Part shown: one piece after another, positions 31,920 through 48,419 of the stretch | How the letters are laid out: each line of letters opens with the position of its first letter | How positions within the stretch are numbered: position 1 is the stretch's first letter | Source: the human T2T-CHM13v2.0 reference genome, Homo sapiens | Length of the DNA stretch: 64,000 nt | Reading direction: 5' to 3' (one strand) | NCBI RefSeq assembly: GCF_009914755.1 | Contig: NC_060935.1 | Notes under the pieces: model-generated | What the model saw: only the letters and a program-made list of their open reading frames with translations | Database searches by the model: none | What the model was told of the DNA's origin: nothing | Position numbers and translations under genes: made by a program

Positions 31920-33116
31920 AATTTACAGTAGCCAAAACAGCATGGTACTGGTACAAAAACAGACACGTAAACCAATGAAGCAGAATAGAGAACTCAGAAA
32001 TAAGACCGCACACCTACAATCGTTTGATCTTCGACAAACTGGACAAAAACAAATGTGGAAAGGATTCCCTATTTAATAAATGGTGCTCAGTGAACTGACT
32101 AGCCATATGGAGAAAATTGAAAGTGAACCCCTTCCTTACACCTTACACAAAAATTAACTCAAAATGGATTAAAGACTTAAATGTAAAACCCAAAACTATA
32201 AAAACCTTAGAAGAATATCTGAGTAATACCATTCAGGGCATAGGCATGGACAAAGATTTCATGACAAAAATGTCAAAAGCAACTGCAACATAAACAAAAA
32301 TTGACAGATGGGATCTAATGAAACTAAAGAGCTTCTGTACGCAAAAGAAACTATCATCAGAGTGAACATATAACCTACAGAATGGGAGAAAAAGTGTGCA
32401 ATCTATCCATCTAGATATTAGACAAAGGTCTAATATCCAAAGTCTACAAGGAATCTAAACAAATTTACAAGAAAAAAACAAACTGCCCCATTAAAAAGTA
32501 GGCAAAGGACATGAACAGACACTTCTTAAAAGAAAATATTTATGTGACCAACAAACATGAAAAAAAGCTCAACATCACTGATCATTAGAGAAAAGTAAAT
32601 TGAAACCACAATGAGATACCATCTCAAGCCAGTCAGAGTGGTGATTACTAAGAAGTCAAGAAACAACAGCTGCTGGTAAGGTTGCAGAGGAAAAGGAATG
32701 CTTTTACACTGTTGGTAGAAGTGTAAATTAGTTCAACCATTGTGGAAGATAGTGTGGTGATTCTTCAAAGACCTAGAGGCAAAAATACCATTTGACCCAG
32801 CAATCCTGTTACTGGATATATACCCAAATGAATATAAACCATTCTATTATAAAGATGCATGCATATATATATTCATTGCAGCACTATTCACAATAGCAAA
32901 GACATGGAATTAACCCAAATGCCCATCAAGGATAGACTCTGGGTAAAGAAAATATGGTACATGTACACCATGGAATACTATGCAGCCATAAAAAGGAATG
33001 AGGTCATGTCCTTTGCAGGTACATGGATGGAGCTGGAAGCCGTTATCCTCAGCAAACTAATGCAGGAACAGAAAACCAAATACCACATGTTCTCACTCAT
33101 AAGTGGGAGCTGAATG
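31920..33116 (+). mobile_element. L1PA (mid-age) ORF2 3' fragment
   Basis: CCAAAACAGCATGGTACTGGTAC..., EYYAAIKRNEVMSFAGTWMELE motif; ends AAGTGGGAGCTGAATG. Confidence 0.88.
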
Positions 33117-34849
33117 TGGTAGAATAATGGTTAGAGAAAAATTCTTATATATATATGTATTGTCCAATCAGTTTACATAAAGATACTTTGCAGTCTCAAG
33201 GTGCCATTTCTTCCAGTTCAATACAGGCAGCATTTCTTCACTATCTTAAACTGTCAAATGTGCCATTCCTAACTAATTCTGTATTTTCCATCACAAGAAA
33301 ATTGAAGCAATGCTGCTATTATTCACAATACTATGACCCTTTGGAATATGTTTTGAGGAAATTATACAGATCTTCTTGCCTCCACAATACCCTAGTAGCA
33401 TTTATTTAATACTAGCCTCAGCATTACTCATGACAATGCATTATCCATTGTGTCGCCCACAGATGCTGGCTTCTGTTCACCTTCTCAAAGGTTCTTACCC
33501 TTCTCAGTTGATGGTGACCACAAATGCAATTCTTGATCAGAATATGCAGGAAAATGTGAACAATAATTCATTTTCTGGACATGTTAAATTTACTCTTCAC
33601 TTGACCACATATACTCTTTAGGCCATAATCACTGCATTCCCAAAGTCTTTCAATATTGATCATGGTCTCTCTAAGGATTCATATAATAGCATGCTCACAG
33701 GTATCTTCCATAACACTCCACAACAAAACAAATGTCTAAAAGAAAGACATTTTCATTTGTTCTTGGATTCAACATAGAAAACTTTTGAATTTTCAGAGCA
33801 ATAAGCCGTGTTGCAATGTATCATGTCAAGATAAACTCATTAATATAAAATACTCAAGTGGTAAGGCTAAAATTTGAATTACAAAACAATATTTATTTTA
33901 TATGTAAGATTACATATGTCAGGAGGTTCTATTCATAAACAGTGGATCTAACACATCAAGTGACATCTAAAAATCATTAGTTAATTATAAGTTTATTCTG
34001 AAAAATTTATTTTTATTACTTTTATTTCCACAAAGTCATTGTTACTGAAGTCCAGATTTTTACATGATAAATATTCTGTTGACATTAAAGCCAAATTAGA
34101 TAAACTCTTCTTGAATCACTGTAGTCTTAAAGTAGATTTTTTTTCCTAATTTAAATTTAGAAAACTTCATTCTGCTAAAGTAGTAGTAACTAGAATTGTC
34201 ACTAAAATCTTAAACCAATTACTGTAATTTGAAAATAAATGAACTTTACATATCATATCTAAATCTTGCAATGGTGTTGCATACAACGATGTATCTGTCG
34301 CAGAATATCTTAATTTTATCAAATAAAGCCCTACCAATTAAATTGTAAATATTTTCATTCCTTAATTCATTTCTTAAGTTTTTCTGCATTCAGAATTTTC
34401 ATGTTTGTACAGAAAACTGAAAACAGCAGTGTGTTGCTACTTTATTCCAAATTTGGAATGGGAAAGGTTTGCATCCTGAAAGAGCACCTGGAGTGGAAGG
34501 GAGAGTCAGGTGAAACAGGTTCAGTGAGAGGCTGTGTGCTCAACAGGGTGGAGTCCTGCTTTGAAACCAGCCTGCTGCTCTGCACACATTCTTCCAAGAT
34601 GGGCCCGGAGGTTCCTTCAAAGCAACACGGACTATGGATTTAGGGGTTCAAGACTCCTCCAGCTCTCCCTCTGCTTCTGCCGCTGCAGCAGGGATTGGAG
34701 GCGTTGCTTGCAGTGGGCTCTCTCCCCATTTCGCCTTCATGTCTCCCTATTCTGTTTTGCCTTTTGATCCTCCTAATCCTAGTCTCATTAATTTCTTCCA
34801 TTGTATTCCTTCAGCGTCTTCCTTTTCCTCGGATTTCCCACTTTCTTAC

Positions 34850-35274
34850 TGATTGGATCCCAGTGAAGACCCCAAGATTGCAGCCATCTTGACTGCCCTG
34901 ACTCAGCATTCCTGGATTCGCCAGTTCCCGCCATCCCAGCGGCCATCTTGGCTACCCTGACTTGGCATTTTCACCTGTTCCCGCCATTTATTCCCGCCAT
35001 CTCGGCAGCCACCTCGGATACCCTGACTCAGCATTTCCGGGTCCACCTTTCTTGTTCCCGCCGCCTCAGTGAACACGCATGCCCACTAAAGCACATCACT
35101 AAGGCACATCACTCATCTATATAAGCGCGCTGCACCTTTGGCACAGCGCGACTTCCCTGACCCTCCCCCTGCAGACCACTGAACCTCGCCGGAGAGCTCA
35201 ATTAAGAAGATTTTTGCCCTCTTTGTCTCGCCTCTCGGCCTTATTGATCCACGGTGCCCTTCCATTGCCTTTCA
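34850..35274 (+). repeat. 5' LTR
   Basis: TGATTGG...CTTTCA; TATA-like CTATATAA near 35117; poly(A) signal mutated to AATTAA (35200-35205); about 27 differences from the 3' LTR by manual count (about 6%). Confidence 0.97.
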
Positions 35275-35275
35275 T

Positions 35276-35293
35276 TGGTGCCAAAACCCGGGA
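35276..35293 (+). promoter_or_regulatory. Primer binding site, tRNA-Phe
   Basis: TGGTGCCAAAACCCGGGA versus TGGTGCCGAAACCCGGGA (complement of the tRNA-Phe 3' end): 17/18 match, directly after the LTR. Confidence 0.95.
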
Positions 35294-35443
35294 AGGGACA
35301 CCTCCTAAGCCCCCCAGAGGCTCGAGGGGACTCCCCTCCTGGTCAGATCAGGCTTCTTCCCCACGGCTACCCATCCGTTTCGTTCGGTTACTTGCCACCA
35401 GGTTGCAGCTGCTGCAGCCACTCCAGTCCAATTCGGCTGACGC

Positions 35444-35452
35444 TGGGTGAGT
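35444..35452 (+). promoter_or_regulatory. Probable retroviral major splice donor
   Basis: TGG|GTGAGT in the leader between PBS and gag. Confidence 0.65.
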
Positions 35453-35717
35453 ACCCCTCCTTTTTCCTTTTGTCTGTTCCTCCCTGGCTGAGAGTCATGC
35501 ACATGCCCAGGGAAAGTTTCCTTCCTCAAGGGAAGGCCAGTCCGGGCCACCAGGTGACCCAAGTTTACTTCCCCAGGGGAAGTCCAAATCGGCACTGACT
35601 ACTCGGAGACGTCTGTGTCTGAAGTAGCCGATCCGAGGCTCCAGGAGCCACGTGGTCTGAGTGACCCCAGAAGGATGCTTCTGCTGTCCCTCAGACCGTG
35701 GCCATAAAGGGAAGGGG

Positions 35718-37451
35718 ATGGGGTCCACCCAGTCCAAAATCGTGCAAAACACCCCCTTAGGGTGCCTCCTGCGCAACCTCCCAACTTTACAACTCGACCA
35801 AGATTTAAAACGAAAGCGACTAATTTTCTTCTGCACAGTTGCCTGGCCGCAATATACCTTAGACAACCAATCTCGCTGGCCCCCCGAAGGCACACTCAAC
35901 TTCAATATCCTAAACGACCTTACCAATTTTTGTCAGAAGCAAGGCAAATGGTCAGAAATCAAATATGTTCAAGGGTTCTGGGACCTTCACTCTCCACCAG
36001 ACCTCTGCGCCCCGTGTTCACTAGTGCAAGTCCTTTTAGCTAAAACCTCTCCCAAAACCTCTCCTGATCCGGACAAAGATGATCTTTCTCCTCTCTCAGA
36101 CCCCATAGATAACTTATCTTCCCCTCCCCTCCAAACTGCAGCCCATGCTCTGCCGCCACCATACGCTTCCCCACCCCCCTCGGCTCCACCTTCAGGTCAC
36201 GCACCGCCCACTTCCTCACGGGTCCCTCCTTCGCCAATCACGCCACCTCCTCCTCCACCTCCATCATCTCCTCCTCCTCCACCACTACCCTCACCTGCCC
36301 CTCCCAAGTCCCCTGTGGCCGCACACACCCAGGCCAGGCCGGCACTCCTTGCCCCGCTGCGCGAAGTGGCTGGAGCGGAAGGCATTGTTCGAGTTCATGT
36401 GCCTTTCTCCCTCGTTGATTTGTCCAAAATAGAAAGACACCTAGGCTCTTTCTCCACCAACCCTACTCTTTTCACAAAAGAATTTCACTATCTCTGTCAG
36501 GTTTATGACCTCACTTGGCACGATATCCATATTATTCTTACCTCCACCCTTTCCCCTGAGGAAAGAGAACGCATTCTAATTGCAGCACGGCAGCATGCCA
36601 ATCAATTACATCTAACAGACCCCAACGTACCCGTTGGAACACAGGCGGTTCCATCCACCGATCCAGAGTGGGATTACCAAGTTGGGCAAGCAGGGCGTCG
36701 CCGCCGGGACATAATGGTTCAATGCCTCCTGGCAGGGATGCAGGTGGCCTCCAATAAATCAGTCAACTTTGACAAACTAAAGGAAATTGTACAATACCCG
36801 GATGAAAATCCGGCAGTCTTCCTAAATCGGCTGACTGATGCCTTAGTCCACTATACCCGCCTAGATCCGGCCTCCCCTGCAGGGGCAACCATCTTGGCAA
36901 CATATTTTATTTCCCAGTCAGCAACAGATATTAGAAAAAAACTAAAATAGGCGGAGGAAGGCCTCCAAACCCCTATTCAGGACTTAGTAAAGCTGGCGTT
37001 CAAAGTTTTTAATTCCCGAGAGGAGGCGGCTGAGGTACAACAACAGGCAAGATTAAAACAAAAAGTTCAGCTCCAAACCCAGGCCCTGGCGGCTGCCGTG
37101 CAACCGGCATTCCCTAAGAGCCCAGGCAAGAAAGGTAGAGGTACAATCTCCCGGGCCCCATCTGGCGCCTGCTTCAAGTGCGGCAACTCGGGACACTGGG
37201 CCAGCCGGTGCCCTAGCCAACAGCAACCGTCCTGCCTGCCTTACAACTGTTTCAAGTGCGGCAATCCAGGTCATTGGGCAAAGCAGTGCCCAAACCCCAA
37301 GCCGCCAATGCGCCCGTGCCCTAACTGCCGACAAATGGGGCACTGGAGGTCAGACTGCCCCGGCCTCAGAGCGGCCGCTGTGTCTCCACATGGCGACCCC
37401 TCCCCGGATGGTGAAGGTACCTTCCAGCTCCTCCAACTGGACGATGACTGA
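35718..37451 (+). pseudogene. gag: ERV gag (MA, proline-rich p12-like region, CA, NC) with a single in-frame TAG at 36948-36950
   Basis: Myristoylation-type MGSTQSK start; PPPY and PSAP late motifs; MHR-like VQYPDENPAVFLNRL; the same frame continues past the TAG to three CX2CX4HX4C knuckles and TGA at 37449-37451. Confidence 0.92.
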
Positions 37452-40400
37452 AGAGGCCCAGACTCGGGAACCCCTCTCACCCTTGCCAAGCTCAGGGTAA
37501 TGCTTCAGGTAGCGGGTAAGTCCATTTCCTTTTTACTGGACCCAGGGGCTACCTACTCTGTTTTGCCATCTTTTAGTGGGCCCAGCCAACCCTCCTCAAT
37601 CTCTGTTATGGGGATTGATGGCACTCCCTCCACCTACCGCCAGACACCTTCACTGCCCTGCCGCCTAGACCACTCGTTCTTCACACACTCTTTCCTCATC
37701 ATCCCTTCATGTCCAGTCCCTCTCCTAGGGAGAGATCTCCTGACCAAGTTAGGAGCCTCAGTAGTCTTCCGGCCCGGCCCATCCACCCACCTAGCTCTTC
37801 TCCTACCCCTACTCTCAGCCGATACAGCAGCCCAGGCCTCTCCAACCCTGCCATTAGTCTTCCCTTCCCCCGTTGACCCCAAAGTTTGGGACACCAACAC
37901 TCCCGTTGTTGCCACACACCATAAGCCAGTCCTTATTAAGTTAAAGGACCCACTCAAGTTCCCTGCCCGACCTCAGTTCCCCATTTCCTTAGAGCACCGT
38001 GGAGGACTAAAACCCATTATTATTCGGCTTCTACAACAACACATCCTAATTACCACTAATTCTCCTTGCAATACTCCTATTCTGCCGGTACGAAAAGCCT
38101 CTGGGACTTACCGTCTAGTACAAGATCTTCGCCTCATCAACGAGGCAGTCATCCCTACAGTCCCGGTAGTTCCTAATCCATACACACTCCTCTCTCGCAT
38201 CCCCCCCAACAGGTCTCACTTCACTGTTCTGGACCTTAAAGATGCCTTTTTCTCTATCCCACTAGACCCCGCTTGTTACTTCCTCTTTGCTTTCACATGG
38301 GAGGACCCAGACACCGGCGTCTCTAAACAACTCACCTGGACGGTTCTGCTACAGGGGTTTAGAGACAGCCCTCATTTCTTTGGACAGGCATTGGCCCAAG
38401 ACCTCGCTCGCTGCCCTTTGGAGGCCAGTACTGTTATCCAATATGTTGATGACCTGCTCCTTTGCAGCCCCTCTGAGACAGATTGCCTTAAGGACACTTG
38501 TACTCTCTTAAACTTCCTAGGAAACTGAGGCTATAGAGTCACCCCGTCCAAAGCCCAACTATGTACCTCTAAAGTCACCTACTTAGGTATACGTCTCACC
38601 CCAAACTCAAAAGGCCTAACCTCAGACAGAATCAGCCTTTTACAAAATCTTCAGCCTCCACAAGATGCTGAAGATATTCTCTCCTTCTTGGGGCTAGTCG
38701 GCTTTTTCAGACATTGGGTCCCCAATTTCGGAGTCCTAGCAAGGCCCCTGTATCAGGCCACCAAACAGACCCCCCTTGGCCCACTGTCTGAGCCAAAACT
38801 AGTAGCCAATCTTTTCAATAAGCTTAAAAATTGCCTCATAACAGCCCCAGTCCTCTCACTCCCAAACCCGCTACGCCCATTCCATCTCTTTACCGATGAG
38901 CGGGAAAAGGTTGCTACAGGGCTCCTGGCCCAACTGGTAGGAAGAACACACCAGCCAGTAGCCTACCTTTCCAAGCAGCTCGAGCCCACTGTCCAGGGCT
39001 GGCAGCCGTGCCTGCAGGCTTTGGCTGCGGCAGCGAAACTCACCAAAGAGGCTCTTAAGCTTACCTTAGGGCACCCTCTCACTGTTTTCTCCTCACATAG
39101 GCTACAAGACTTACTCTCACACAAGTGCCTGAGTCACCTGACCCCCTCCAGACTCCAGCTATTTCATCTCCTGTTTATTGAAAACCCACACATCACACTT
39201 ACTACCTCTCCAACTTTAAACCCAGCTACCCTCCTCCCCTGCCCAGAACAGGACCCTGCATCCTTACACTCGTGTTCTTAAATCCTATCAACCCTACCCC
39301 CCGCGCACCTAAGCCTCCAAGACAACCCCATCCTAGATCCCCATCAGACCCTGTCTGTGGATGGTAGCTCCATCTCCACGCCGCAGGGCCAACGACGAGC
39401 GGCATACGCCGTGGTCACCTCATCTCAAGTAGTTGAGGCCAAACCACTTCCCACTGGTATAACCTCCCAGAAGGCAGAACTCATAGCTCTTACTAGAGCT
39501 CTAATTCTATCTAAAAACAAAAAAGTAAACATATACACTGATTCCAAGTATGCCTACTTAATAGCGCATACCTACTCCATTCTCTGGCAGGAACGGGGGT
39601 TCCTTACCACTAAAGGTACTCCTATTGTCAATGGACCCCTCATTGAGAAACTCATCCAGGTGCTAAAAGCCCCCACACAGGTAGCCATCATCCATTGCAA
39701 AAGCCACCAAAATTCTAAAGACCCTATATCATTAGGCAACAATTTCGCCAACACCACTGCCCGGGCCACGGCCCTCTTGGCCCCTTCCCCCACTCCTGTG
39801 TGCTTCCTCTCTCCTGCTTACACTCCCGATTACTCCCCTGAAGAGCTAGTCCACCTCATGGGTCGCTCAGGAGTAAAAACCAACTCCAATGAGCGCTTTC
39901 ATAGCCACACCCCTAACAAGAGTAATCAGGGCTGGATATTCGTGGATGATAGAGTAGTTCTCCCGTGCAGTCAGAAGAAACTCATCCTCACCGACATGCA
40001 CCGTTCGTTACATATAGGCCCAAAGGCTTTATATAACTTTCTTGAACCCATAATCTACCATCCTTCCCTTTATTCCTTACTGAAGCAAATACATCAGGAA
40101 TGCCATGTTTGCACAGTGGCAAACCCTCAGGGAAAACTTAAGCTCCCAGGTCCCTGTCACCAGCTAAGAGAACATCAGCCAGGAGAAGACTGGCAAGTTG
40201 ACTTCACCCACATGCCTAGACACAAAAAGTTCCGTTATCGCTCCTGGTCCTTCAGATTTCAGCTCCTCAGACTCCTCTACAGGGAAAGCCCTCCCTGACT
40301 CCCCCAGCCAAGATGGGTCTCTTTGTTTTCAGATGAGATCGGCAGCTTGGGGCCAGGTGCAGTGGATCACGCCTGTAATCCCAGGACTTTGAGAGGCCGA

Positions 40401-41706
40401 GGCGGGCAGATCACCTGAGATCGGGAGTTCAAGACACAGCCTGAGCAACATGAAGAAACCCCGTCTCTACTAAAAATACAAAATTAGGAGCTCTCCCTCT
40501 CCCTCTCCCTCTCCCCACGGTCTCCCTCTCCCTCTCTTTCCACGGTCTCCCTCTCATGCTGAGCCGAAGCTGGACTGTACTGCTGCCATCTCGGCTCACT
40601 GCAACCTCCCTGCCTGATTCTCCTGACTCAGCCTGCCGAGTGCCTGCGATTGCAGGCTCGCGCCGCCACGCCTGACTGGTTTTGGTGGAGACGGGGTTTC
40701 GCCGTGTTGGCCAGGCCGGTCTCCAGCCCCTAACCGCAGGTGATCCGCCAGCCTCGGCCTCCCGAGGTGCCGGGATTGCAGACGGAGTCTCGTTCACTCA
40801 GTGCTCAGTGGTGCCCAGGCTGGAGTGCAGTGGCGTGATCTCGGCTCGCTACAACCTCCACCTCCCAGCTGCCTGCCTTGGCCTCCCAAAGTGCCAAGAT
40901 TGCAGCCTCTGCCCGGCTGCCACGCCGTCTGGGAAGTGAGGAGCGTCTCTGCCTGGCCGCCCATCGTCTGGGATGTGAGGAGCCCCTCTGCCTGGCTGCC
41001 CAGTCTGGAAAGTGAGGAGTGTCTCCGCCCGGCCGCCATCCCACCTAGGAAGTGAGGAGCACCTCTTCCTGGCTGCCATCACATCTAGGAAGTGAGGAGC
41101 GTCTCTGCCCGGCCGCCCATCGTCTGAGATGTGGGGAGCGCCTCTGCCCCGCCGCCCCGTCTGGGATGTGAGGAGCACCTCTGCCCGGCCACCACCCCGT
41201 CTGGGAGGTGTGCCCAACAGCTCATTGAGAACGGGCCAAGATGACAATGGAGGCTTTGTGGATAGAAGGGCGGGAAAGGTGGGGAAAAGATTGAGAAATC
41301 GGATGGTTGCCGTGTCTGTGTAGAAAGAAGTAGACATGGGAGACTTTTCATTTTGTTCTGTACTAAGAAAACTTCTTCTGCCGTGGGATCCTGTTGATCT
41401 GTGACCTTACCCCCAACCCTGTGCTCTCTGAAACATGTGCTGTGTTCACTCAGGGTTAAATGGATTAAGGGCGGTGCAAGATGTGCTTTGTTAAACAGAT
41501 GCTTGAAGGCAGCATGCTCGTTAAGAGTCATCACCACTCCCTAATCTCAAGTACCCAGGGACACAAACACTGCGGAAGGCCGCGGGGTCCTCTGCCTAGG
41601 AAAACCAGAGAGCTTTGTTCACTTGTTTATCTGCTGACCTTCCCTCCACTATTGTCCTATGACCCTGCCAAATCTCCCTCTGTGAGAAACACCCGAGAAT
41701 TATCAA

Positions 41707-41738
<32 letters not shown>

Positions 41739-42530
41739 GTTCCGTTATCTTCTTACTCTAGTAGATACTTTCTCAGGTTGGATTGAAGCCTATCCCACCA
41801 CTCATGAAACAGCAGAGGTGGTAGCTTCAACCCTCATTGAACACATAATCCCGAGATTTGGCCTCCCTCGGACAATCCAATCTGAAAATGGTCCTGCTTT
41901 TATCTCCAAGATAGTCAAACAGGTGACAACCACACTTGGCGTTAACTGGAAGCTACACACTCCATACCATCCACAGTCTTCTGGAAAAGTGGAACGCGCC
42001 AACGGCCTTGTCAAACAACACCTAATCAAACTGGCTCTGGAGACACGCCAATCGTGGGTAACCTTACTTCCCTTTGCCCTCGCGCGGCTCCGGGCAGCAC
42101 CCCGAAGCCCCACAGGACTTAGCCCCTTTGAACTCCTATAGGGGCGCCCCTTCCTCTTTCAAGAGCTCCCTGTGAATACCCCACCTCTTAGCACGTACCT
42201 GCCCTACCTCACCCTGTTAAGGGAGCTGCTAAGAGAGCACGCCGACCGCAGCCTTCCAAAGCCCGGACCACTCGGCCCAGACAGTCTGGCCATAATAACC
42301 CCAGGAGATCAGGTACTAGTAAAAGACCTCCAGGCAAGAGGCCTCTCCCCCCGGTGGAAAGGCCCCATACGGTAATTCTTACAACACTGACGGCAGCTAA
42401 ACTTATAGGCCTTCCTTCCTGGTACCATATTTCCCATCTTAAGAGGGCACCTACACAAGATCAGGCCACTTGGACTGTCACCTCCCTCTCCCCAACCAAA
42501 CTGAAACTCTCTAAATCAAATACCGCATGA
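37452..42530 (+). pseudogene. pol: ERV pro-pol (PR, RT, RNase H, IN), in frame with gag; disabled by stops, an SVA insertion and a late frameshift
   Basis: PR LLDPGA (canonical DTG altered); RT LDLKDAFF, QGFRDSP and YVDD; RNase H DGS/AELIAL/YTDSKY; IN CHVC and WQVDFTHMP...VDTFSGWIEA split by the SVA; stops at 38526, 39279 and 42139. Confidence 0.93.
40240..41733 (+). mobile_element. SVA retrotransposon (SVA_D/E-like) with about 250-bp 5' transduction, inserted in integrase
   Basis: 16-bp TSD AAAAAGTTCCGTTATC at 40224-40239 and 41734-41749; (CCCTCT)n from about 40491, antisense Alu-like domain, short VNTR about 40907-41207, SINE-R, AATAAA and poly(A). Confidence 0.97.
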
Positions 42531-44365
42531 ATTCTCCGTGTGACAGGCTCCAACAATTTATTCAAGTTCTTCTCGAGGAAAGCTGGTCATTCCCTACTTT
42601 TGCTAACACACTTCACTGGCCTGAAAATCTGTTAGCCTATATAGACGAACTAGTGTGGCAAGGCTCCCTCCAGAACTTTCACCAACAAGAAGTTCGCTTT
42701 TTTTGTCTTGTCACTCTTCTTACTCTTGCACACCAGTCGTAGTAGACAAGCCCCCTCTCAGACTCCCTCTCACTGGGTTTTTTTCCTCACTGAGAATTGG
42801 AATTCCGGACAGGCAGTCTCCTCTAGACTAGTAGCCACGGCAGCATGCCCGCCAGCAAGGTGCCAGGCACCCATAACTTTCCTAGGTCTAAAATTCTCCT
42901 CCTTAGGCCCAAATACAAAAAACCCAGCGCTTTGCTTCCTGTATGATCAAAGTAACTCCAAATGCAATACCACCTGGGTCAAAGAAAATGTAGGCTGCCT
43001 GTGGCACTGGTGCAATATCCATGAGGCATCCATTTATAGAAAGGATACCATGTTCTCTGTCAACACTTCAGGAGGCTTTAACGGATTTAACCTCCAAATC
43101 TCTGACCCTTGAGACCCCCGCTGGGCCTCCGGTATAGATGGAGGACTATATGAGCACAGAACTTTTATGTATCCGGTAGCTAAGATCCGCATTGCCAGGA
43201 CCCTTAAAACCACTGTCACAGGGTTATCCGACTTAGCCTCCTCAATCCAGTCGGCCGAGAAGGCTTGCCAACCAGCTTCAACTGGCAGCTGACCAGGCCA
43301 TGTCCTCCCCCTTCTCGTGGTTAACTTTAATCTCAGAAGGTACACAACTGCTCCAATCCACAGGGGTACAAAACCTCTCCCACTGCTTCTTCTGTGCGGC
43401 CCTTGGAAGACCTCCCTTAGTGGCAGTTCCTCTCCCTACCCCCTTTAATTATACAAGAAATTCATCCACCCCTATACCACCGGTCCCGAAAGGACAGGTC
43501 CCACTATTCTCAGACCCTACAAGACACAAGTTCCCGTTCTGTTACTCCATCCCAAATGCCTCTTGGTGTAACCAGACCAGGATGCTTACCAGTGCCCCGG
43601 CACCACCCGGAGGCTACTTCTGGTGTAACTCCATGCTAACTAAAGTTCTTAACTCAACTGGTAATCACACCTTGTGCTTACCCGTCTCTCTCATCCCTAG
43701 CCTGACCCTATATAGTCAGGACGAACTTAGCCATCTGCTAGCCTGGACCGAGCCAAGGCCGCGAAATAAAAGCAAACGGGCTATTTTCCTACCCTTAGTA
43801 CTAGGCATCTCCTTAGCCTCCTCCTTAGTGGCATCAGGGCTAGGAACAGGAGCCCTCACCCACTTAATCCAAACATCTCAGGATCTGTCTACTCACCTGC
43901 AGTTGGCCATTGAGGCATCGGCTGAGTCCCTGGCCTCCCTACAGCAACAGATGACTTCGGTAGCACAGGTCACGGCACAGAACAGGCGGGCCTTAGACCT
44001 GCTTACGGCAGAAAAAGGAGGGACATGTTTATTCTTACAGGAAGAATGCTGCTATTAACGAGTCAGGGGTAGTTGAGACTAATTTACAAACTTTAAAAAA
44101 GATCCAAGAGGAGTTAAAACACTCCTACGACCCTCTCCGCCCTGGTCCTTCCTGGTGGTTTTCACCCGTGGTTCAACAGATGCTCCCTTTCCTTATCCCA
44201 ATTATAATTCTCTGTATAATACTGTGTTTTGCCCCAATCCTAGTACAGTTTCTCCGCCAGCGGATACAAGAAATCACCAGGGTCACTTTCAACCAGATGC
44301 TACTTCACCCTTATGTCCAACTGCCAACCTCTGATTTAGGCCCCCTCCCCAACGACGCCCCTTAA
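42527..44365 (+). pseudogene. env: ERV env (SU-TM), with frameshifts and stops
   Basis: SU CXXC (CFFC, 43384), basic cleavage site RNKSKR|AIFL, fusion peptide, ISD AQNRRALDLLTAEKGGT, CX6CC (CLFLQEECC), TM helix PFLIPIIILCIILCFAPIL; split over four ORFs. Confidence 0.93.
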
Positions 44366-44410
44366 CAGCAGGAAGTAGCCAGACGAATTCGTCGCCCCTT
44401 TTCTATAACC

Positions 44411-44425
44411 AAAAAGAGCTTGGAC
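44411..44425 (+). promoter_or_regulatory. Degenerate polypurine tract
   Basis: AAAAAGAGCTTGGAC directly before the 3' LTR. Confidence 0.6.
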
Positions 44426-44850
44426 TGATTGGATCCCGGTGAAGACCCCAAGATCGCAGCCATCTTGGCTGCCCTGACTCAGCATTCCCGGATTCGCCAG
44501 TTCCCGCCATCCCAGCAGCCATCTTGGCTACCCTGACTTGGCATTTTCGCCTGTTCCCACCATTTATTCCCGCCATCCGGACAGCCACCTCGGATACCCT
44601 GACTCAGCATTTCCGGGTTCACCTTTCTTGTTCCCGCTGCCTCAGTGAACACGCATGCCCACTAAAGCACGTCACTGAGGCACGTCACTCATCTATATAA
44701 ATGCGCTACACGTTTGGCACAGCGTGACTTCCCTGGCCTTCCCCCTGCGGACCAGTGAACCTCGCCCGAGAGCTCAATAAAGAAGATTTTTGCCCTCTTT
44801 GTCTCGCCTCTGGGCCTTATTGATCCACGGTGCCCTTCCATTGCCTTTCA
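44426..44850 (+). repeat. 3' LTR
   Basis: TGATTGG...CTTTCA, CTATATAAAT near 44693, intact AATAAA at 44776-44781, followed by TSD CTTAC. Confidence 0.97.
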
Positions 44851-44855
44851 CTTAC

Positions 44856-45115
44856 CGGGGTGACCCTTCCGGGACTCCGCTGGGATGTGGCGTCTCATCT
44901 GGAGCTCACCTCCTGAAGAGAAGCGTCCACAGCTTCACCGCCATGAAGGGAAAAAGGAGAGAGAGGCGGGGAGGGCCACGGAGTCCTGGTGGCACTCCGT
45001 GTTCCTTCACAAGTCTTTGTCCAGCGGGACAAGGTTTACAAGAAGCGCCAAGCTCTTCGCCAACCAAGTTCCTCCAGAGAAACTGAGAAGCGCGTTTGTG
45101 TTCCAGCAGAACGGA
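44856..45115 (-). other. Putative minus-strand first exon (CpG-rich, probably non-coding)
   Basis: Lies between a TATA/CCAAT promoter and a CCG|GTAAGT donor; contains YY1-like CATGGCGG and only short ORFs; TSS inferred from TATA spacing. Confidence 0.6.
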
Positions 45116-45300
45116 GTAAATTGCTTTGGGCTGTGTGTATTTAAAGGGGCAAGGAACGCAGTCTTCTGATTGGTGTGCCTCCGCTCGCCGTGTCCATGGT
45201 AACCAGCTAGCGCCCTGACCCGGCCCGGACCTCAGCTGCGGGGAATCTACCGGAAGCTAAGGAGAACAGCCCGCAGCCTACGCCGCGGGGCCCTGGTGAC
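45116..45300 (-). promoter_or_regulatory. CpG-rich Pol II promoter (TATA-like, NF-Y, RFX X-box, ETS)
   Basis: TATTTAAA 45138-45145; CTGATTGG (CCAATCAG on minus) 45166-45173; GTGTCCATGGTAAC 45190-45203; ACCGGAAG 45249-45256; many retained CpGs in non-repeat DNA. Confidence 0.7.
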
Positions 45301-46519
45301 CAGTTTGGTTAGTCTCGGGCTCTCGAGTCTGCCAGGAGTCTAACAACGCAGTTCTCCTCTTCGGCGGTCTTAGGTTTCCTCTTCAATGGCACAGATTTTT
45401 GCCCATCTGTCCTTCTTTTTCTCCCTACCTTTAGTTCCTGTGATTCAGGTGCCTACAGCAGGGAGACCTGCCACGGCGCGCAGGTGATGTCTTGAGACAT
45501 GGGGCTGGGGTCCAACAGAGTAAAGGCCAGGAATTTCTTTCTCCTGGTGATGAATAATTACTGGCCGCATTGATTGATAGCATATTCCATTCTAGACGCA
45601 GGACACACCTATGAAGTATGGTCTCTCTGATTAAATTTTATCAACGCATTGTGGTTAAGGAATGTGTCCAAGGTATAGACTGAGCAAAACCAAACAGGGA
45701 CGGGGTCAGACCATGTCTTAACCATGCAGGCAGGTTGTGGGAACGAGCTTGAGAAGTACATTTCTGAGTGCCTTAGACCAGATTGCCTGGGAGGGGAATG
45801 AAATGAGGATGATGAGGCTGGAAGGTCAGGCTGAGATCACCTGGGCTCCTGATCCCACCATTCTAGACCTGATTTCCACGTGGCCCCAGGTATCCCTGAG
45901 ATAGCTCACATGACTAGAATGTAGGAACGTGGTCCTGCCTCTCTTGGGAGGCAGTCTTGGCCTAGTCCCAAGGGCTCATTTGGAGAACAAGACAGATTTA
46001 TACTTCACTGAGCACCACTAAGTAGCATTAGGCCCTTTCAGCATCTAACTTGAAGTGGTCACAGTGAGAAGTCTATATCCTGTTCTTTTCTCTGCTCAGG
46101 TGTTCTTGGGATTCTCTGGGTCCTCTGGCTCACAGCCTTACGCACCTGCTCTTCCCTTCACAGCCTAGGAGACCTGGTCTTCTCTGGGTCAGATGCCCAT
46201 ATCATACAGTAGGAATAGGGGCTGTTCGATTTCAGAATGATTCCATCAAATCCAAGACAACAAGTTAGCTTAATTTAGGTATACTCCAACATTGTCAAAG
46301 CCTATTCAATAGAAAATATGTAACTTGTTTGTGCAAGTCTTTCATAATTATTTTCATGCCATGTTTCCGTTTCAATCTTAATAATTTCTTGCTTCTGTGA
46401 TAAGCTAAATCCTTCAAATCTTGGACCCCATAAGGTGTCAGAGACCAGGGCCAGGGCCCTGCTTTCCAAGGCCTAACAGGATCTGACTGTTGATTTCTAT
46501 TCTGGTTATCTATTGGTGT

Positions 46520-47092
46520 CATCTAAAAATAAGCATTTATTATACTAATGAATTTGTGCATTGTGAATTCAGAAAGGGAACAGTGGGGAAATCTTGTCTG
46601 CACAACAGTGACTGGGTCATGAGCTGGGATGGATTGAATTACTGGATGTGACCGTGACAGCTACGCTGTACCGTGTACCTGTCAGCTGAATTTCTTGGTT
46701 CTAACTCGTGTGACATGTACTGCAGCTGGGATGTCCAATATAACTTTTTTACTCACATGTCTGAGATGGTTCAAACATCAGAGCATGACTGAGCAGAGGC
46801 TTCTCTTTGTGAGTCTTTTCCATATAGCTAACTGGGGCTTCATCACAGCAAAACTGTCTCAGTGCAGTCAGATATCCCCCTAAACAACTTAACTAAGAGA
46901 TGCTGGTAGAAGCTACAAGGCCTCTTAGGAGCTTGTCTCAGAATTCAATCAGTTTCACTTCCAACACATTCTTTTAACCAAAAGTGAATCCAAGACTCAT
47001 CTCAGATTGAAAATAAGGGGATCATACAAAGTATTGATTCCTCACTAGCATGCTACATTGGGGGCGGGCATCTTTTGAGATCAGCTACAACA
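46520..47092. mobile_element. Old MaLR (MLT1-type) LTR
   Basis: GGTAGAAGCTACAAGGCCTCTTAGGAGCTTGTCTCAGAA...TCACTTCCAACACATTCT resembles the MLT1 core; highly diverged. Confidence 0.55.
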
Positions 47093-47139
47093 AATACTGA
47101 TGAGGTGAATTAAATTACTCTAAAAATTCTCATATTATT

Positions 47140-47720
47140 CAGCTTCTAGCCAAGATATGATGAAAGGGACTGAATTTGCTTTCCTAACTGACCTAAAACA
47201 AAACAAACCAAAAGTGGAATAAAATATAGTAAACAATGAGTTTCAAGACAGTAGACATCAGGCAAGTAAGGACAGTTATCCCTGAAATATGTGAAACAAA
47301 TGAGGCAGGCCCTACAACTACCCCAGTTTTCTGTCTTCAAAGAGTTTCCAGGCTGCAGTGCAGGGAAGCAAGACCAAATGGAACTCAGTGGAGTCCCTAA
47401 GTGGAGGAGATGTAATTGGAGTACAGAAAGACCAAACCCGCTAAAGCTCGCAAGAAAGAATACTGGAGAAAAGAAAGCTGCACACAGAGAGAAGCCTGAA
47501 AACCTACAGAGGATCTTCCTCAAGTAATGAATGAATGTGTGCAGATGAGGACACTAACCAAGGTGGAGGAAGGGAGGAGGGCACCTAAAAGAATTAGTGA
47601 GAACAGTATCCAATCAACACACAGGGCCTGAAATAGTATCTGTTTCCACCGTCGAGAAAGGAAAGCATTATAATTCATAAGGCATTGGGGAAAATTCTCA
47701 AATGGTCTTTCTTAGTAGTG
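47140..47720 (+). mobile_element. Old L1M 5' end fragment
   Basis: GCTTCTAGCCAAGATATG start and TTTCAAGACAGTAGACATCAGGCA are typical of L1MC/ME 5' ends. Confidence 0.5.
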
Positions 47721-48419
47721 AACAGCAGTAAAAAATAATAAAGTCAACTTACACATAGCAACATGTATAAATTTGAAGATATAGCATTGATAGAAAAAGA
47801 ATAACAGATTTACAACCCAGTGACAGTTATATAAATTCAATTTTAAAAGAATTTTTTCATAAATTAAGTATATCCCTGTATAAGCATACTGAAAATTAAT
47901 TAGAAAGATATATTTTAAATCCACTGGAGTTTTCACTTTCCTAAAGGGAAGGGAAATAGGAGGAATGTTGGAAAATACAGGAAAAGAAATAAAGCAAAAG
48001 TCTTGAAGAAACTTATGATGCTTGTTTCCATTAGTTGATAAGTGTGAATAATTCATATAAGGTTCAAAATGAAAATAAAACCTAAAGGAAAAACATAGTT
48101 GCTAACTAATATTGGGTTATTTATAAATTCCATTTTTAAACCTCTCACCACAAAAAAAATTATTATAGGTCTTTTTTCTCTGAATATCACATTGCATTTT
48201 CTCAGTAAGATTTTGTTCAGTTTTCTCTTGCATTTTTATCATAATACCTTCATAAAAGTCATGATAGATTAACACCAATCCATTCAATAGCATGGTTTGG
48301 GCAGTGCCTATCAAACAAAACAAGCAGGAAGCCCACAAAAATTTCCATTCACTTATTGGATCCACAGAAGCTGCTCAGTGTGCATAGGCAGATGAATATG
48401 AACACAGATGGATGTGAAC

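What the first reader, a model, noticed from the sequence alone, without database searches (positions are those of the whole stretch)
34845..44860. Provirus integrated exactly on a host splice donor: the TSD is GTAAG
Seen: the 5-bp TSD CTTAC reads GTAAG on the minus strand. The reconstructed pre-insertion site is CCCCG|GTAAGAAAG, closing a CpG-rich minus-strand segment, with GC-rich DNA continuing at 34400-34844. After integration the exon-proximal copy borrows a T from the LTR end and reads CCG|GTAAGT, the full +1 to +6 U1 consensus. A second copy (TCA|GTAAGA) lies 10 kb downstream. Inference: a 10-kb antisense provirus landed 5 nt into intron 1, left the donor intact or stronger, and created an alternative donor. 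This could explain why it was tolerated.
Basis: partly seen in the sequence, partly recalled or inferred. Interest (0 to 1): 0.8.

Follow-up and report, generated by a model that had tools for sequence, protein, structure and literature searches.

The report
Old provirus sitting on a splice donor
A roughly 10-million-year-old defective retrovirus copy inserted exactly at the first five intron bases of a non-coding RNA gene and rebuilt the splice signal as it did so, which is a tidy but ordinary example of a known pattern.

Summary
A 10,001-bp ERV-Fc-type provirus lies on the + strand at 34850-44850. It has 425-bp LTRs that differ by 6.35%, TG...CA ends, a tRNA-Phe primer site, and a perfect 5-bp duplication, CTTAC (GTAAG on the minus strand). 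The right-hand copy (44855-44851) is exactly the first five intron bases after exon 1 of the predicted lncRNA LOC112268071, whose exon ends at 44856. The LTR end adds T at +6 and G at +7. Computed U1 pairing improves from -8.2 kcal/mol (rebuilt empty site) to -10.1, which is the top 0.4% of minus-strand GT sites in the window.

The far copy (TCA|GTAAGA, -4.5) is unremarkable, and no listed exon ends there. The annotated transcript splices into the provirus instead. Its exon 2 (43897-43998) is antisense env with a perfect CAG|GTGAGT donor.

The insertion sits at the edge of a small CpG island that holds an alternative start site. This fits a gammaretroviral preference for promoters.

Whether the donor was in use before the insertion could not be tested, because no primate empty site or RNA data were available. 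Published work already shows that fixed elements within 20 bp of exons favour the donor side. The case is interesting but not surprising.

The parts
34845..34849 (.). Left copy of the 5-bp target-site duplication, CTTAC. On the minus strand it is the far GTAAG, in the context TCA|GTAAGA.
34850..35274 (+). 5' LTR, 425 bp, TG...CA ends, CpG observed/expected 0.69.
35276..35293 (+). Primer-binding site. It is identical at 18 of 18 bases to the tRNA-Phe(GAA) site listed for HERV-Fc1 and HERV-Fc2.
35661..37448 (+). gag. The likely start MGSTQSK is at 35718. It carries a Gag_p30 capsid domain and zinc knuckles. An in-frame TAG at 36948 interrupts it, and the TGA at 37449 lies at the gag/pro boundary.
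37452..40295 (+). pro-pol in the same frame as gag: protease, reverse transcriptase, RNase H and the integrase zinc domain. In-frame stops lie at 38526, 39279 and 40296.
40343..41740 (+). SVA-like composite retroelement inserted into the integrase gene: an Alu-like piece, a CCCTCT repeat, a ~40-bp VNTR and an A-tail.
41710..42527 (+). Integrase core (rve) and, in another frame, the C-terminal domain. The latter aligns to the MLV integrase C-terminal domain, tail included.
43237..44362 (+). env remnant. Only the C-terminal part of the TLV_coat profile is matched (positions 231-558), split over two frames. The upstream ORF 42654-43109 has no Pfam match.
44426..44850 (+). 3' LTR, 425 bp, with AATAAA at 44776. 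Its terminal CA reads TG on the minus strand and supplies donor positions +6 and +7.
44851..44855 (-). Right copy of the duplication. It forms intron positions +1 to +5 (GTAAG) of the annotated LOC112268071 exon-1 donor, CCG|GTAAGTGA.
   Evidence: RefSeq rows supplied with the finding
44856..46685 (-). LOC112268071 exon 1 (alternative short form 44856-45112). Single-copy host DNA.
   Evidence: RefSeq rows
44856..45500 (.). Small CpG island abutting the provirus (GC about 0.58, observed/expected about 0.7). CCAAT (45173-45169) and TTTAAATA (45145-45138) lie on the minus strand upstream of the alternative start 45112.
43897..44001 (-). LOC112268071 exon 2 (43897-43998, or to 44001), made from antisense env. 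It has a pyrimidine tract with a tandem AAGCAG acceptor and a CAG|GTGAGT donor (U1 duplex -13.8 kcal/mol).
44561..44842 (-). RefSeq exon of another transcript, entirely within the antisense 3' LTR. No AG precedes it. Its status is unresolved: a separate start site or a model artefact.
   Evidence: note

Best explanation
An ERV-Fc-group gammaretrovirus-like virus integrated in the germ line of an ape ancestor, about 7-14 million years ago by LTR divergence. The site was the downstream edge of a small CpG-island promoter in the 11p15.4 olfactory-receptor cluster. Its integrase made the family's usual 5-bp staggered cut across CTTAC, and gap repair duplicated those five bases.

On the minus strand these bases are GTAAG, preceded by CCG. 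That was already a competent 5' splice site about 257 nt below a promoter-like start. The copy next to the exon kept its exonic context and gained T at +6 and G at +7 from the invariant LTR terminal dinucleotide, which lengthens U1 pairing. The far copy received CA at -2/-1 and is weak.

The junction therefore stayed the donor, and it is the annotated exon-1 donor of LOC112268071 today. The provirus lies antisense. It now supplies the acceptor, a 102-105-nt exon from antisense env, and a consensus donor.

Shown here: the anatomy, the family assignment, the coincidence with the annotated exon end, and the U1 pairing values. Inferred: promoter-directed integration, and that the donor was in use before the insertion (my odds about 45%).
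For: Anatomy: LTRs, TG...CA ends, 5-bp duplication, PBS and polypurine tract.

Family:
- The PBS is identical at 18/18 bases to the HERV-Fc1/Fc2 entry in Diehl 2016, Figure 2-source data 3.
- Composition is C-rich: C 32.5%, G 19.1%.
- gag-pro-pol is in one frame, and the Pfam domains are in retroviral order.
- The closest Gag and protease-RT in the genome belong to the X-linked provirus, at 71% and 70% amino-acid identity. The next best are 49-57%.
- The LTR is low-copy; the best other copy is 85% identical.

Donor:
- The RefSeq exon ends at 44856, and all listed splice sites are canonical.
- U1 duplex energy is -10.1 after insertion, -8.2 for the rebuilt empty site and -4.5 for the far copy.
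- Of the 3437 minus-strand GT sites in the window, 0.41% reach -10.1, 2.4% reach -8.2 and 21% reach -4.5.

Promoter context:
- 44856-45355 has GC 0.586 and CpG observed/expected 0.72, against 0.26 in the left flank.
- CCAAT and a TATA-like motif lie about 60 and 30 nt upstream of the alternative start 45112.
- Both flanks are single-copy in the genome.

Targeting:
- The integrase C-terminal domain aligns to the MLV integrase C-terminal domain (2m9u/7jyz, E 1.4e-6), including the Trp-containing tail.
- MLV integrates preferentially near start sites and CpG islands through BET proteins (abstracts of PMC1480600, PMC6379647 and PMC4121521 in the listing).

Age: 27/425 = 6.35% divergence. Dividing by twice 4.5e-9 per site per year (the rate in PMC4798954) gives about 7 million years, and half that rate gives about 14.
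Against: - No empty orthologous site and no RNA reads could be examined, so prior use of the donor is not shown.
- The host gene is a predicted, uncharacterised lncRNA. A full-text search for its name found 0 papers.
- GTAAG occurs on one strand or the other at 90 of 64000 window positions, or 1.4e-3. Among the 3173 fairly complete HERVs counted in hg19 (PMC4724089), a few duplications reading GTAAG are therefore expected by chance.
- A nearly equal donor, GAG|GTGAGC at 44909 (-9.7), lies 54 nt upstream within exon 1. U1 pairing alone does not explain why 44855 is chosen.
- The Pfam match to the MLV integrase C-terminal domain is below the curated cut-off (23.9 against 29.2 bits).
- The annotated 3' end of the lncRNA has no nearby AATAAA, so the model is at least incomplete.
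- U1 duplex energy is a crude proxy. MaxEntScan and SpliceAI were not available.
Confidence: 0.6

Rival explanations
1. Coincidence with later recruitment. The provirus landed in non-functional DNA beside a CpG-rich patch. Minus-strand transcription of the flank is low-level or is stimulated by LTR enhancer activity, and it simply uses good donors it meets, one of which happens to be the duplicated GTAAG improved by the LTR end. On this reading there was no pre-existing intron 1, and tolerance needs no explanation.
For: - The chance rate of a duplication reading GTAAG is about 1.4e-3 per insertion.
- The lncRNA is predicted only and is absent from the searched literature.
- Its only exon 2 in the window is proviral, and another listed exon lies wholly in the antisense LTR.
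- The RefSeq enhancer features supplied with the finding overlap both LTRs.
- The pre-insertion donor is weaker (-8.2) than the present one.
Against: - The empty-site sequence was already in the top 2.4% of minus-strand GT sites for U1 pairing.
- The CpG island and the CCAAT/TATA-like motifs are single-copy host DNA outside the LTR. This suggests a host promoter independent of the provirus.
Confidence: 0.33
2. The far duplicated copy at 34849 acts as an alternative donor created by the insertion.
For: It keeps GTAAG at +1 to +5.
Against: - Its context is TCA|GTAAGA. It makes 6 of 11 Watson-Crick matches in register, its duplex energy is -4.5 kcal/mol, and 21% of the window's minus-strand GT sites do as well or better.
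- No exon in the supplied RefSeq rows ends at 34850.
- It lies deep in annotated intron 2 and would need an upstream acceptor in the antisense 5' LTR.
Confidence: 0.04
3. Annotation artefact. The exon end at 44856 belongs to a computational model that snapped to a GT, and no real transcript is spliced there.
For: - The models are XR_ predictions.
- One listed exon (44561-44842) is separated from exon 1 by a 13-nt gap that is not a GT-AG intron.
- The 3' end has no poly(A) signal.
Against: - Two exon-1 forms share the same end.
- The partner acceptor has a pyrimidine tract and a tandem AG, and exon 2 ends in a consensus donor. These are features of real splicing rather than alignment noise.
Confidence: 0.03

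Closest known systems
ERV-Fc / HERVFC lineage (HERV-Fc1 on Xq21.33; Diehl et al. 2016, PMC4798954; Vargiu et al. 2016, PMC4724089)
   Same: - tRNA-Phe PBS identical at 18/18 bases.
- 5-bp duplication and TG...CA ends.
- C-rich genome and in-frame gag-pro-pol.
- Two-zinc-knuckle nucleocapsid and gamma-type env TM.
- The closest Gag and Pol in the genome are those of the X-linked HERVFC provirus.
- LTR divergence falls within the published 10-30 million-year activity window.
   Different: - Only 70-71% amino-acid identity to the X-linked copy.
- The LTR shares no more than 85% identity with any other copy.
- The sub-lineage (Fc1, Fc2 or other) was not assigned by a tree.
- This copy is defective: it has in-frame stops, an SVA-like insert in the integrase gene and a truncated, frameshifted env.
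Fixed transposable elements within 20 bp of exons, biased towards the splice-donor side (Zhang, Romanish & Mager 2011, PMC3088655)
   Same: The insertion lies 5 nt from an exon, on the donor side and antisense, and it takes part in a chimeric spliced transcript. The paper reports exactly these features for elements in the under-represented zone near exons (abstract and passages read).
   Different: That study concerns mostly protein-coding genes and does not describe duplications that coincide with the donor core. Here the host is a predicted lncRNA, and the element is a full-length provirus. The paper gives a 5-kb under-represented zone for full-length human LTR elements.
Antisense bias and exonisation of intronic ERVs (van de Lagemaat, Medstrand & Mager 2006, PMC1794541)
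   Same: The provirus is antisense within a transcription unit, and strong predicted splice sites on the antisense strand of the ERV are used (passages read).
   Different: That paper reports suppressed splicing in young antisense ERVs (HERV9, HML-2). Here an antisense env segment is an annotated exon.
MLV-type integration near start sites and CpG islands through BET proteins (PMC509299, PMC1480600, PMC6379647; listing and abstracts only)
   Same: The integrase is gamma-type, and its C-terminal domain and tail align to those of MLV. The insertion lies about 257 nt below a promoter-like start, at the edge of a CpG island.
   Different: MLV makes 4-bp duplications and this lineage makes 5-bp ones. 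BET binding by an ERV-Fc integrase has not been tested. One locus cannot show a preference.

Membership tests
ERV-Fc (HERVFC) provirus | Primer-binding site complementary to tRNA-Phe(GAA) | tested here: met
   35276-35293 is identical at 18/18 bases to the HERV-Fc1/Fc2 entry in Diehl 2016, Figure 2-source data 3.
ERV-Fc (HERVFC) provirus | 5-bp target-site duplication and TG...CA LTR ends | tested here: met
   CTTAC is present on both sides with TG/CA LTR ends. Four of 5 related insertions also have 5-bp duplications.
ERV-Fc (HERVFC) provirus | Cytosine-rich genome; gag-pro-pol in one frame | tested here: met
   Composition is C 32.5% and G 19.1%. One frame spans 35661-40298, with stops at 36948, 37449, 38526, 39279 and 40296.
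ERV-Fc (HERVFC) provirus | Groups with ERV-Fc in Gag/Pol phylogeny | tested here: inconclusive
   The best non-self Gag and protease-RT hits in the genome are the X-linked provirus (71% and 70%), against 49-57% for the rest. Equating that locus with HERV-Fc1 rests on Vargiu Table 6 (chrX 97.10 Mb in hg19) and on recall. No tree was built.
U2-type GT-AG 5' splice site in use | GT at +1/+2 with extended U1 complementarity | tested here: met
   CCG|GTAAGTGA has 8 contiguous pairs and a duplex energy of -10.1 kcal/mol, the top 0.41% of 3437 GT sites.
U2-type GT-AG 5' splice site in use | Observed exon-exon junctions in RNA | not testable with these tools
   Only the RefSeq predicted models supplied with the finding were available. 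No RNA data could be reached.
U2-type GT-AG 5' splice site in use | Donor present and used at the orthologous empty site | not testable with these tools
   No primate genomes are held. Both flanks are single-copy in the human genome, so no paralogous empty site exists.
CpG-island promoter | At least 500 bp with GC at least 0.55 and CpG observed/expected at least 0.65 (thresholds recalled) | tested here: met
   44856-45355 has GC 0.586, 31 CpG and observed/expected 0.72.
CpG-island promoter | Start site inside it and unmethylated in the germ line | not testable with these tools
   The RefSeq alternative exon start 45112 lies inside it, with CCAAT and TATA-like motifs upstream. No methylation or CAGE data were available.
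SVA retrotransposon (insert at 40343-41740) | CCCTCT repeat, antisense Alu-like region, VNTR, SINE-R tail and poly(A) (definition recalled) | tested here: inconclusive
   The hexamer repeat, a VNTR of period about 40 with 7.8 copies, and the A-tail were seen. The SINE-R part was not compared with a reference, and no flanking duplication was identified.

The most novel reading that the evidence does not exclude
Target-site duplication makes the 5' splice-site core a self-repairing landing spot. Any retroviral insertion whose duplication covers +1 to +5 regenerates the donor next to the exon. Because every LTR end reads TG outward in either orientation, it supplies T at +6 and G at +7, while the far copy is weakened by CA at -2/-1. 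If this is general, it would give a mechanism for the published donor-side bias of fixed elements within 20 bp of exons. It would also predict an excess of LTR insertions whose duplications coincide with donor cores, compared with acceptor-side or shifted registers.
Probability: 0.2. Interest if true: 0.5.

Novelty: new member of a known kind. Interest (0 to 1): 0.3.

Why it matters
This is a clean, base-exact illustration of how a full-length provirus can sit 5 nt from an exon without destroying splicing. The duplication rebuilds the donor, the LTR end strengthens it, and the antisense body is partly turned into an exon. It adds a documented ERV-Fc locus with its anatomy and defects.

It also suggests a simple rule, testable genome-wide, for the known donor-side bias of exon-proximal insertions. 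It touches no protein-coding gene, and no function of the lncRNA is known, so the biological consequence is probably small.

Tried and rejected
- Paralogous empty site. I searched the whole genome with 600 bp of the left flank and 800 bp of the right flank. Each found only itself (1 match each), so the pre-insertion sequence cannot be checked inside this genome.
- Literature on the locus. 'LOC112268071' gave 0 papers. 'HERV-Fc' with '11p15' gave 4 papers, and in the two I opened by passage the 11p15 mentions concern other HERV loci. Benit et al. 2003, the paper most likely to describe this provirus and its primate distribution, is not held. One search was mis-set and uninformative. Table S1 of Vargiu 2016, which lists all chains with coordinates, was not among the text hits I saw and may name this locus.
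- Rfam scan of 33000-48000: 0 matches.
- ORFs in the right flank: 7 stop-to-stop ORFs of 70 aa or more. They were not pursued because the flank is single-copy and non-coding in RefSeq.
- Poly(A) signal at the annotated 3' end of the lncRNA: none seen near it.
- 'First strong donor after the start site' does not hold as an explanation. GAG|GTGAGC at 44909 pairs almost as well.
- MaxEntScan and SpliceAI scoring could not be run. U1 duplex energy was used instead.

Full report
WHAT IS THERE

The stretch 34850-44850 is a provirus on the + strand.
- Two 425-bp LTRs (34850-35274 and 44426-44850) align without gaps. They begin TG and end CA, and they differ at 27 of 425 positions (6.35%). Of these differences, 21 are transitions and 6 are transversions, and 17 lie in a CpG context.
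- CTTAC lies immediately outside both LTRs, at 34845-34849 and 44851-44855. The next base outward differs, so the duplication is exactly 5 bp.
- As a control on boundaries and on duplication length, I looked at six related LTR copies elsewhere in the genome, which represent five insertions. Three solo LTRs and one two-LTR provirus have perfect 5-bp duplications at the same TGATTGGA...TTTCA boundaries. One copy, on chr9, does not.

WHICH VIRUS

- One base after the 5' LTR comes an 18-nt primer-binding site (35276-35293). It is identical to the tRNA-Phe(GAA) site tabulated for human HERV-Fc1 and HERV-Fc2 in Figure 2-source data 3 of Diehl et al. 2016 (PMC4798954).
- Pfam finds the following, in retroviral order: Gag_p30, zinc knuckles, protease, reverse transcriptase, RNase H, the integrase zinc and core domains, a sub-threshold MLV-type integrase C-terminal domain, and the C-terminal part of a gamma-type Env.
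- gag-pro-pol lies in one frame (35661-40298) with in-frame stops at 36948, 37449, 38526, 39279 and 40296. The stop at 37449 sits at the gag/pro boundary, where gammaretroviruses have their read-through stop. That last point is established knowledge, recalled.
- The genome is C-rich: C 32.5%, G 19.1%.
- Passages read in Diehl et al. give all of these as properties of the ERV-Fc lineage: a Phe PBS, 5-bp duplications, TG/CA ends, cytosine bias and in-frame gag-pro-pol.
- In the whole genome, the best non-self matches to Gag and to protease-RT are both in one X-linked provirus, at 71% and 70% identity. All others are at 49-57%. Vargiu et al. 2016 list a HERVFC chain at chrX 97.10 Mb in hg19. That this is the same locus is my inference.
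- The LTR is low-copy. The search returned 31 matches, and the best copy besides the two LTRs is 85% identical.
- This copy is defective. Besides the stops, a 1.4-kb SVA-like element is inserted in the integrase gene. The integrase C-terminal domain is in another frame. Only the C-terminal part of env is recognisable, and it is split across two frames.

AGE

The LTR divergence is 6.35%. Divided by twice 4.5e-9 per site per year (the rate used by Diehl et al.), it gives about 7 million years. At half that rate, which the same passage says is the usual hominid estimate, it gives about 14 million years. This lies within the published window for hominoid ERV-Fc. It predicts that the provirus is present in great apes and absent from gibbons and monkeys, which I could not test.

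THE SPLICE DONOR

On the minus strand the right-hand duplicated copy reads CCG|GTAAGTGA.
The duplicated GTAAG therefore forms intron positions +1 to +5.
- The other listed boundaries are canonical. A pyrimidine tract and a tandem AAGCAG precede 43998/44001, and CAG|GTGAGT lies at 43897/43896.
- Exon 2 lies inside the env ORF 43237-44055, on the opposite strand. The provirus therefore supplies the acceptor, an exon and a consensus donor.

HOW GOOD ARE THE DONORS

MaxEntScan and SpliceAI were not available. I measured pairing to the U1 5' end instead.

| Site | Watson-Crick matches in register (of 11) | Contiguous paired positions | Duplex energy (kcal/mol) |
|---|---|---|---|
| Present donor, 44855 | 8, plus a G.U at +7 | 8 | -10.1 |
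| Rebuilt empty site | 8 | 6 | -8.2 |
| Far copy, 34849 | 6 | 5 | -4.5 |

Of the 3437 GT dinucleotides on the window's minus strand, 0.41% reach -10.1, 2.4% reach -8.2 and 21% reach -4.5.

The site was therefore already a good donor. The insertion improved it through the T and G supplied by the LTR's terminal CA. The far copy is ordinary, and no listed exon ends at it.

Because every LTR reads TG outward at both ends, this gain at +6/+7 and the loss at -2/-1 for the far copy would apply to a provirus in either orientation. That generalisation is my inference.

One caution: GAG|GTGAGC at 44909 pairs nearly as well (-9.7) and lies inside exon 1.

WHERE IT LANDED

- The right flank, 44856-45355, meets CpG-island criteria: GC 0.586 and observed/expected 0.72. 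The island fades by about 45600.
- The left flank, 34400-34849, is moderately GC-rich (0.49) but CpG-poor (0.26). The surrounding DNA is AT-rich.
- Both flanks are single-copy in the genome.
- On the minus strand, CCAAT (45173-45169) and TTTAAATA (45145-45138) lie about 60 and 30 nt upstream of the alternative exon start 45112. These are motif matches, not proof of a promoter.
- The integrase C-terminal domain aligns to the MLV domain (2m9u/7jyz, E 1.4e-6), including the Trp-containing tail. In MLV that tail binds BET proteins (recalled), which steer integration to promoters, enhancers and CpG islands (abstracts in the listing).
- Promoter-proximal integration is thus a plausible reason why the provirus lies so near an exon end, but it remains unproven.

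WHAT REMAINS OPEN

I could not test whether the donor was in use before the insertion. Three points weigh against reading much into the coincidence.
- GTAAG occurs on one strand or the other at 1.4e-3 of window positions. With 3173 fairly complete HERVs in hg19, a few such duplications are expected by chance.
- The lncRNA is a prediction and is absent from the searched literature. Its annotated 3' end lacks a poly(A) signal.
- One listed exon (44561-44842) lies wholly in the antisense LTR, 13 nt from exon 1, with no AG before it.

I put about 45% on prior use of the donor, about 33% on later recruitment, and a few percent each on a model artefact and on the far copy acting as a real alternative donor.

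COMPARISON WITH WHAT IS KNOWN

- Zhang, Romanish & Mager 2011 (PMC3088655; abstract and passages) showed three things. Full-length LTR elements are under-represented within 5 kb of human exons. Elements within 20 bp of exons are strongly biased to the donor side. Such elements more often form chimeric transcripts.
- van de Lagemaat et al. 2006 (PMC1794541; passages) documented the antisense bias and the use of strong ERV splice sites.

This locus is a base-exact instance of those patterns in a lncRNA, not a new kind of event. The small generalisable idea is that the duplication plus the invariant LTR ends regenerate and improve a donor. It could be tested genome-wide.

VERDICT

This is a new member of a known kind, of modest interest.

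Noticed in passing
window 40343-41740: An SVA-like composite retroelement lies on the + strand inside the provirus integrase gene. It consists of an Alu-like piece, a CCCTCT repeat, a VNTR of period about 40 with 7.8 copies, and an A-tail. It separates the integrase zinc domain from the core domain. It starts with a sense Alu-like fragment fused directly to the hexamer repeat, and I found no flanking duplication.
   Followed up: partly
window 42192-42527: The integrase C-terminal domain, in a shifted frame, aligns to the MLV integrase C-terminal domain (2m9u/7jyz, E 1.4e-6). It keeps a Trp and an alternating hydrophobic/basic tail, where MLV has its BET-binding peptide (that role is recalled).
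   Followed up: partly
window 44561-44842, minus strand: A RefSeq exon of another LOC112268071 transcript lies wholly in the antisense 3' LTR. It starts 13 nt below exon 1 with no AG before it and ends ATG|GTGGGA. It is either a start site inside the LTR or a model artefact.
   Followed up: partly
window 45138-45173, minus strand: CCAAT and TTTAAATA motifs lie about 60 and 30 nt upstream of the RefSeq alternative exon start 45112, inside the small CpG island.
   Followed up: no
L003, L004, L005, L006/L008 (chr14:35.79 Mb, chr11:56.09 Mb, chr16:10.31 Mb, chr2:83.88 Mb): These are related low-copy LTRs, 76-85% identical to the one here. Three are solo LTRs and one pair bounds a ~5.5-kb provirus. 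All have perfect 5-bp duplications (GTTAC, AGAAC, CACAG, CCAAT). The copy at chr9:104.26 Mb (L007) shows none.
   Followed up: partly
L013:109 (window -12992): The annotated 3' end of LOC112268071 has no AATAAA within about 40 nt upstream on the minus strand. The model's 3' end is probably incomplete.
   Followed up: no
window 34850-35274 and 44426-44850: Seventeen of the 27 differences between the LTRs are in CpG contexts, yet both LTRs still have CpG observed/expected of about 0.7. The RefSeq enhancer features supplied with the finding (34392-35591 and 43903-45102) each span one LTR plus its flank.
   Followed up: no
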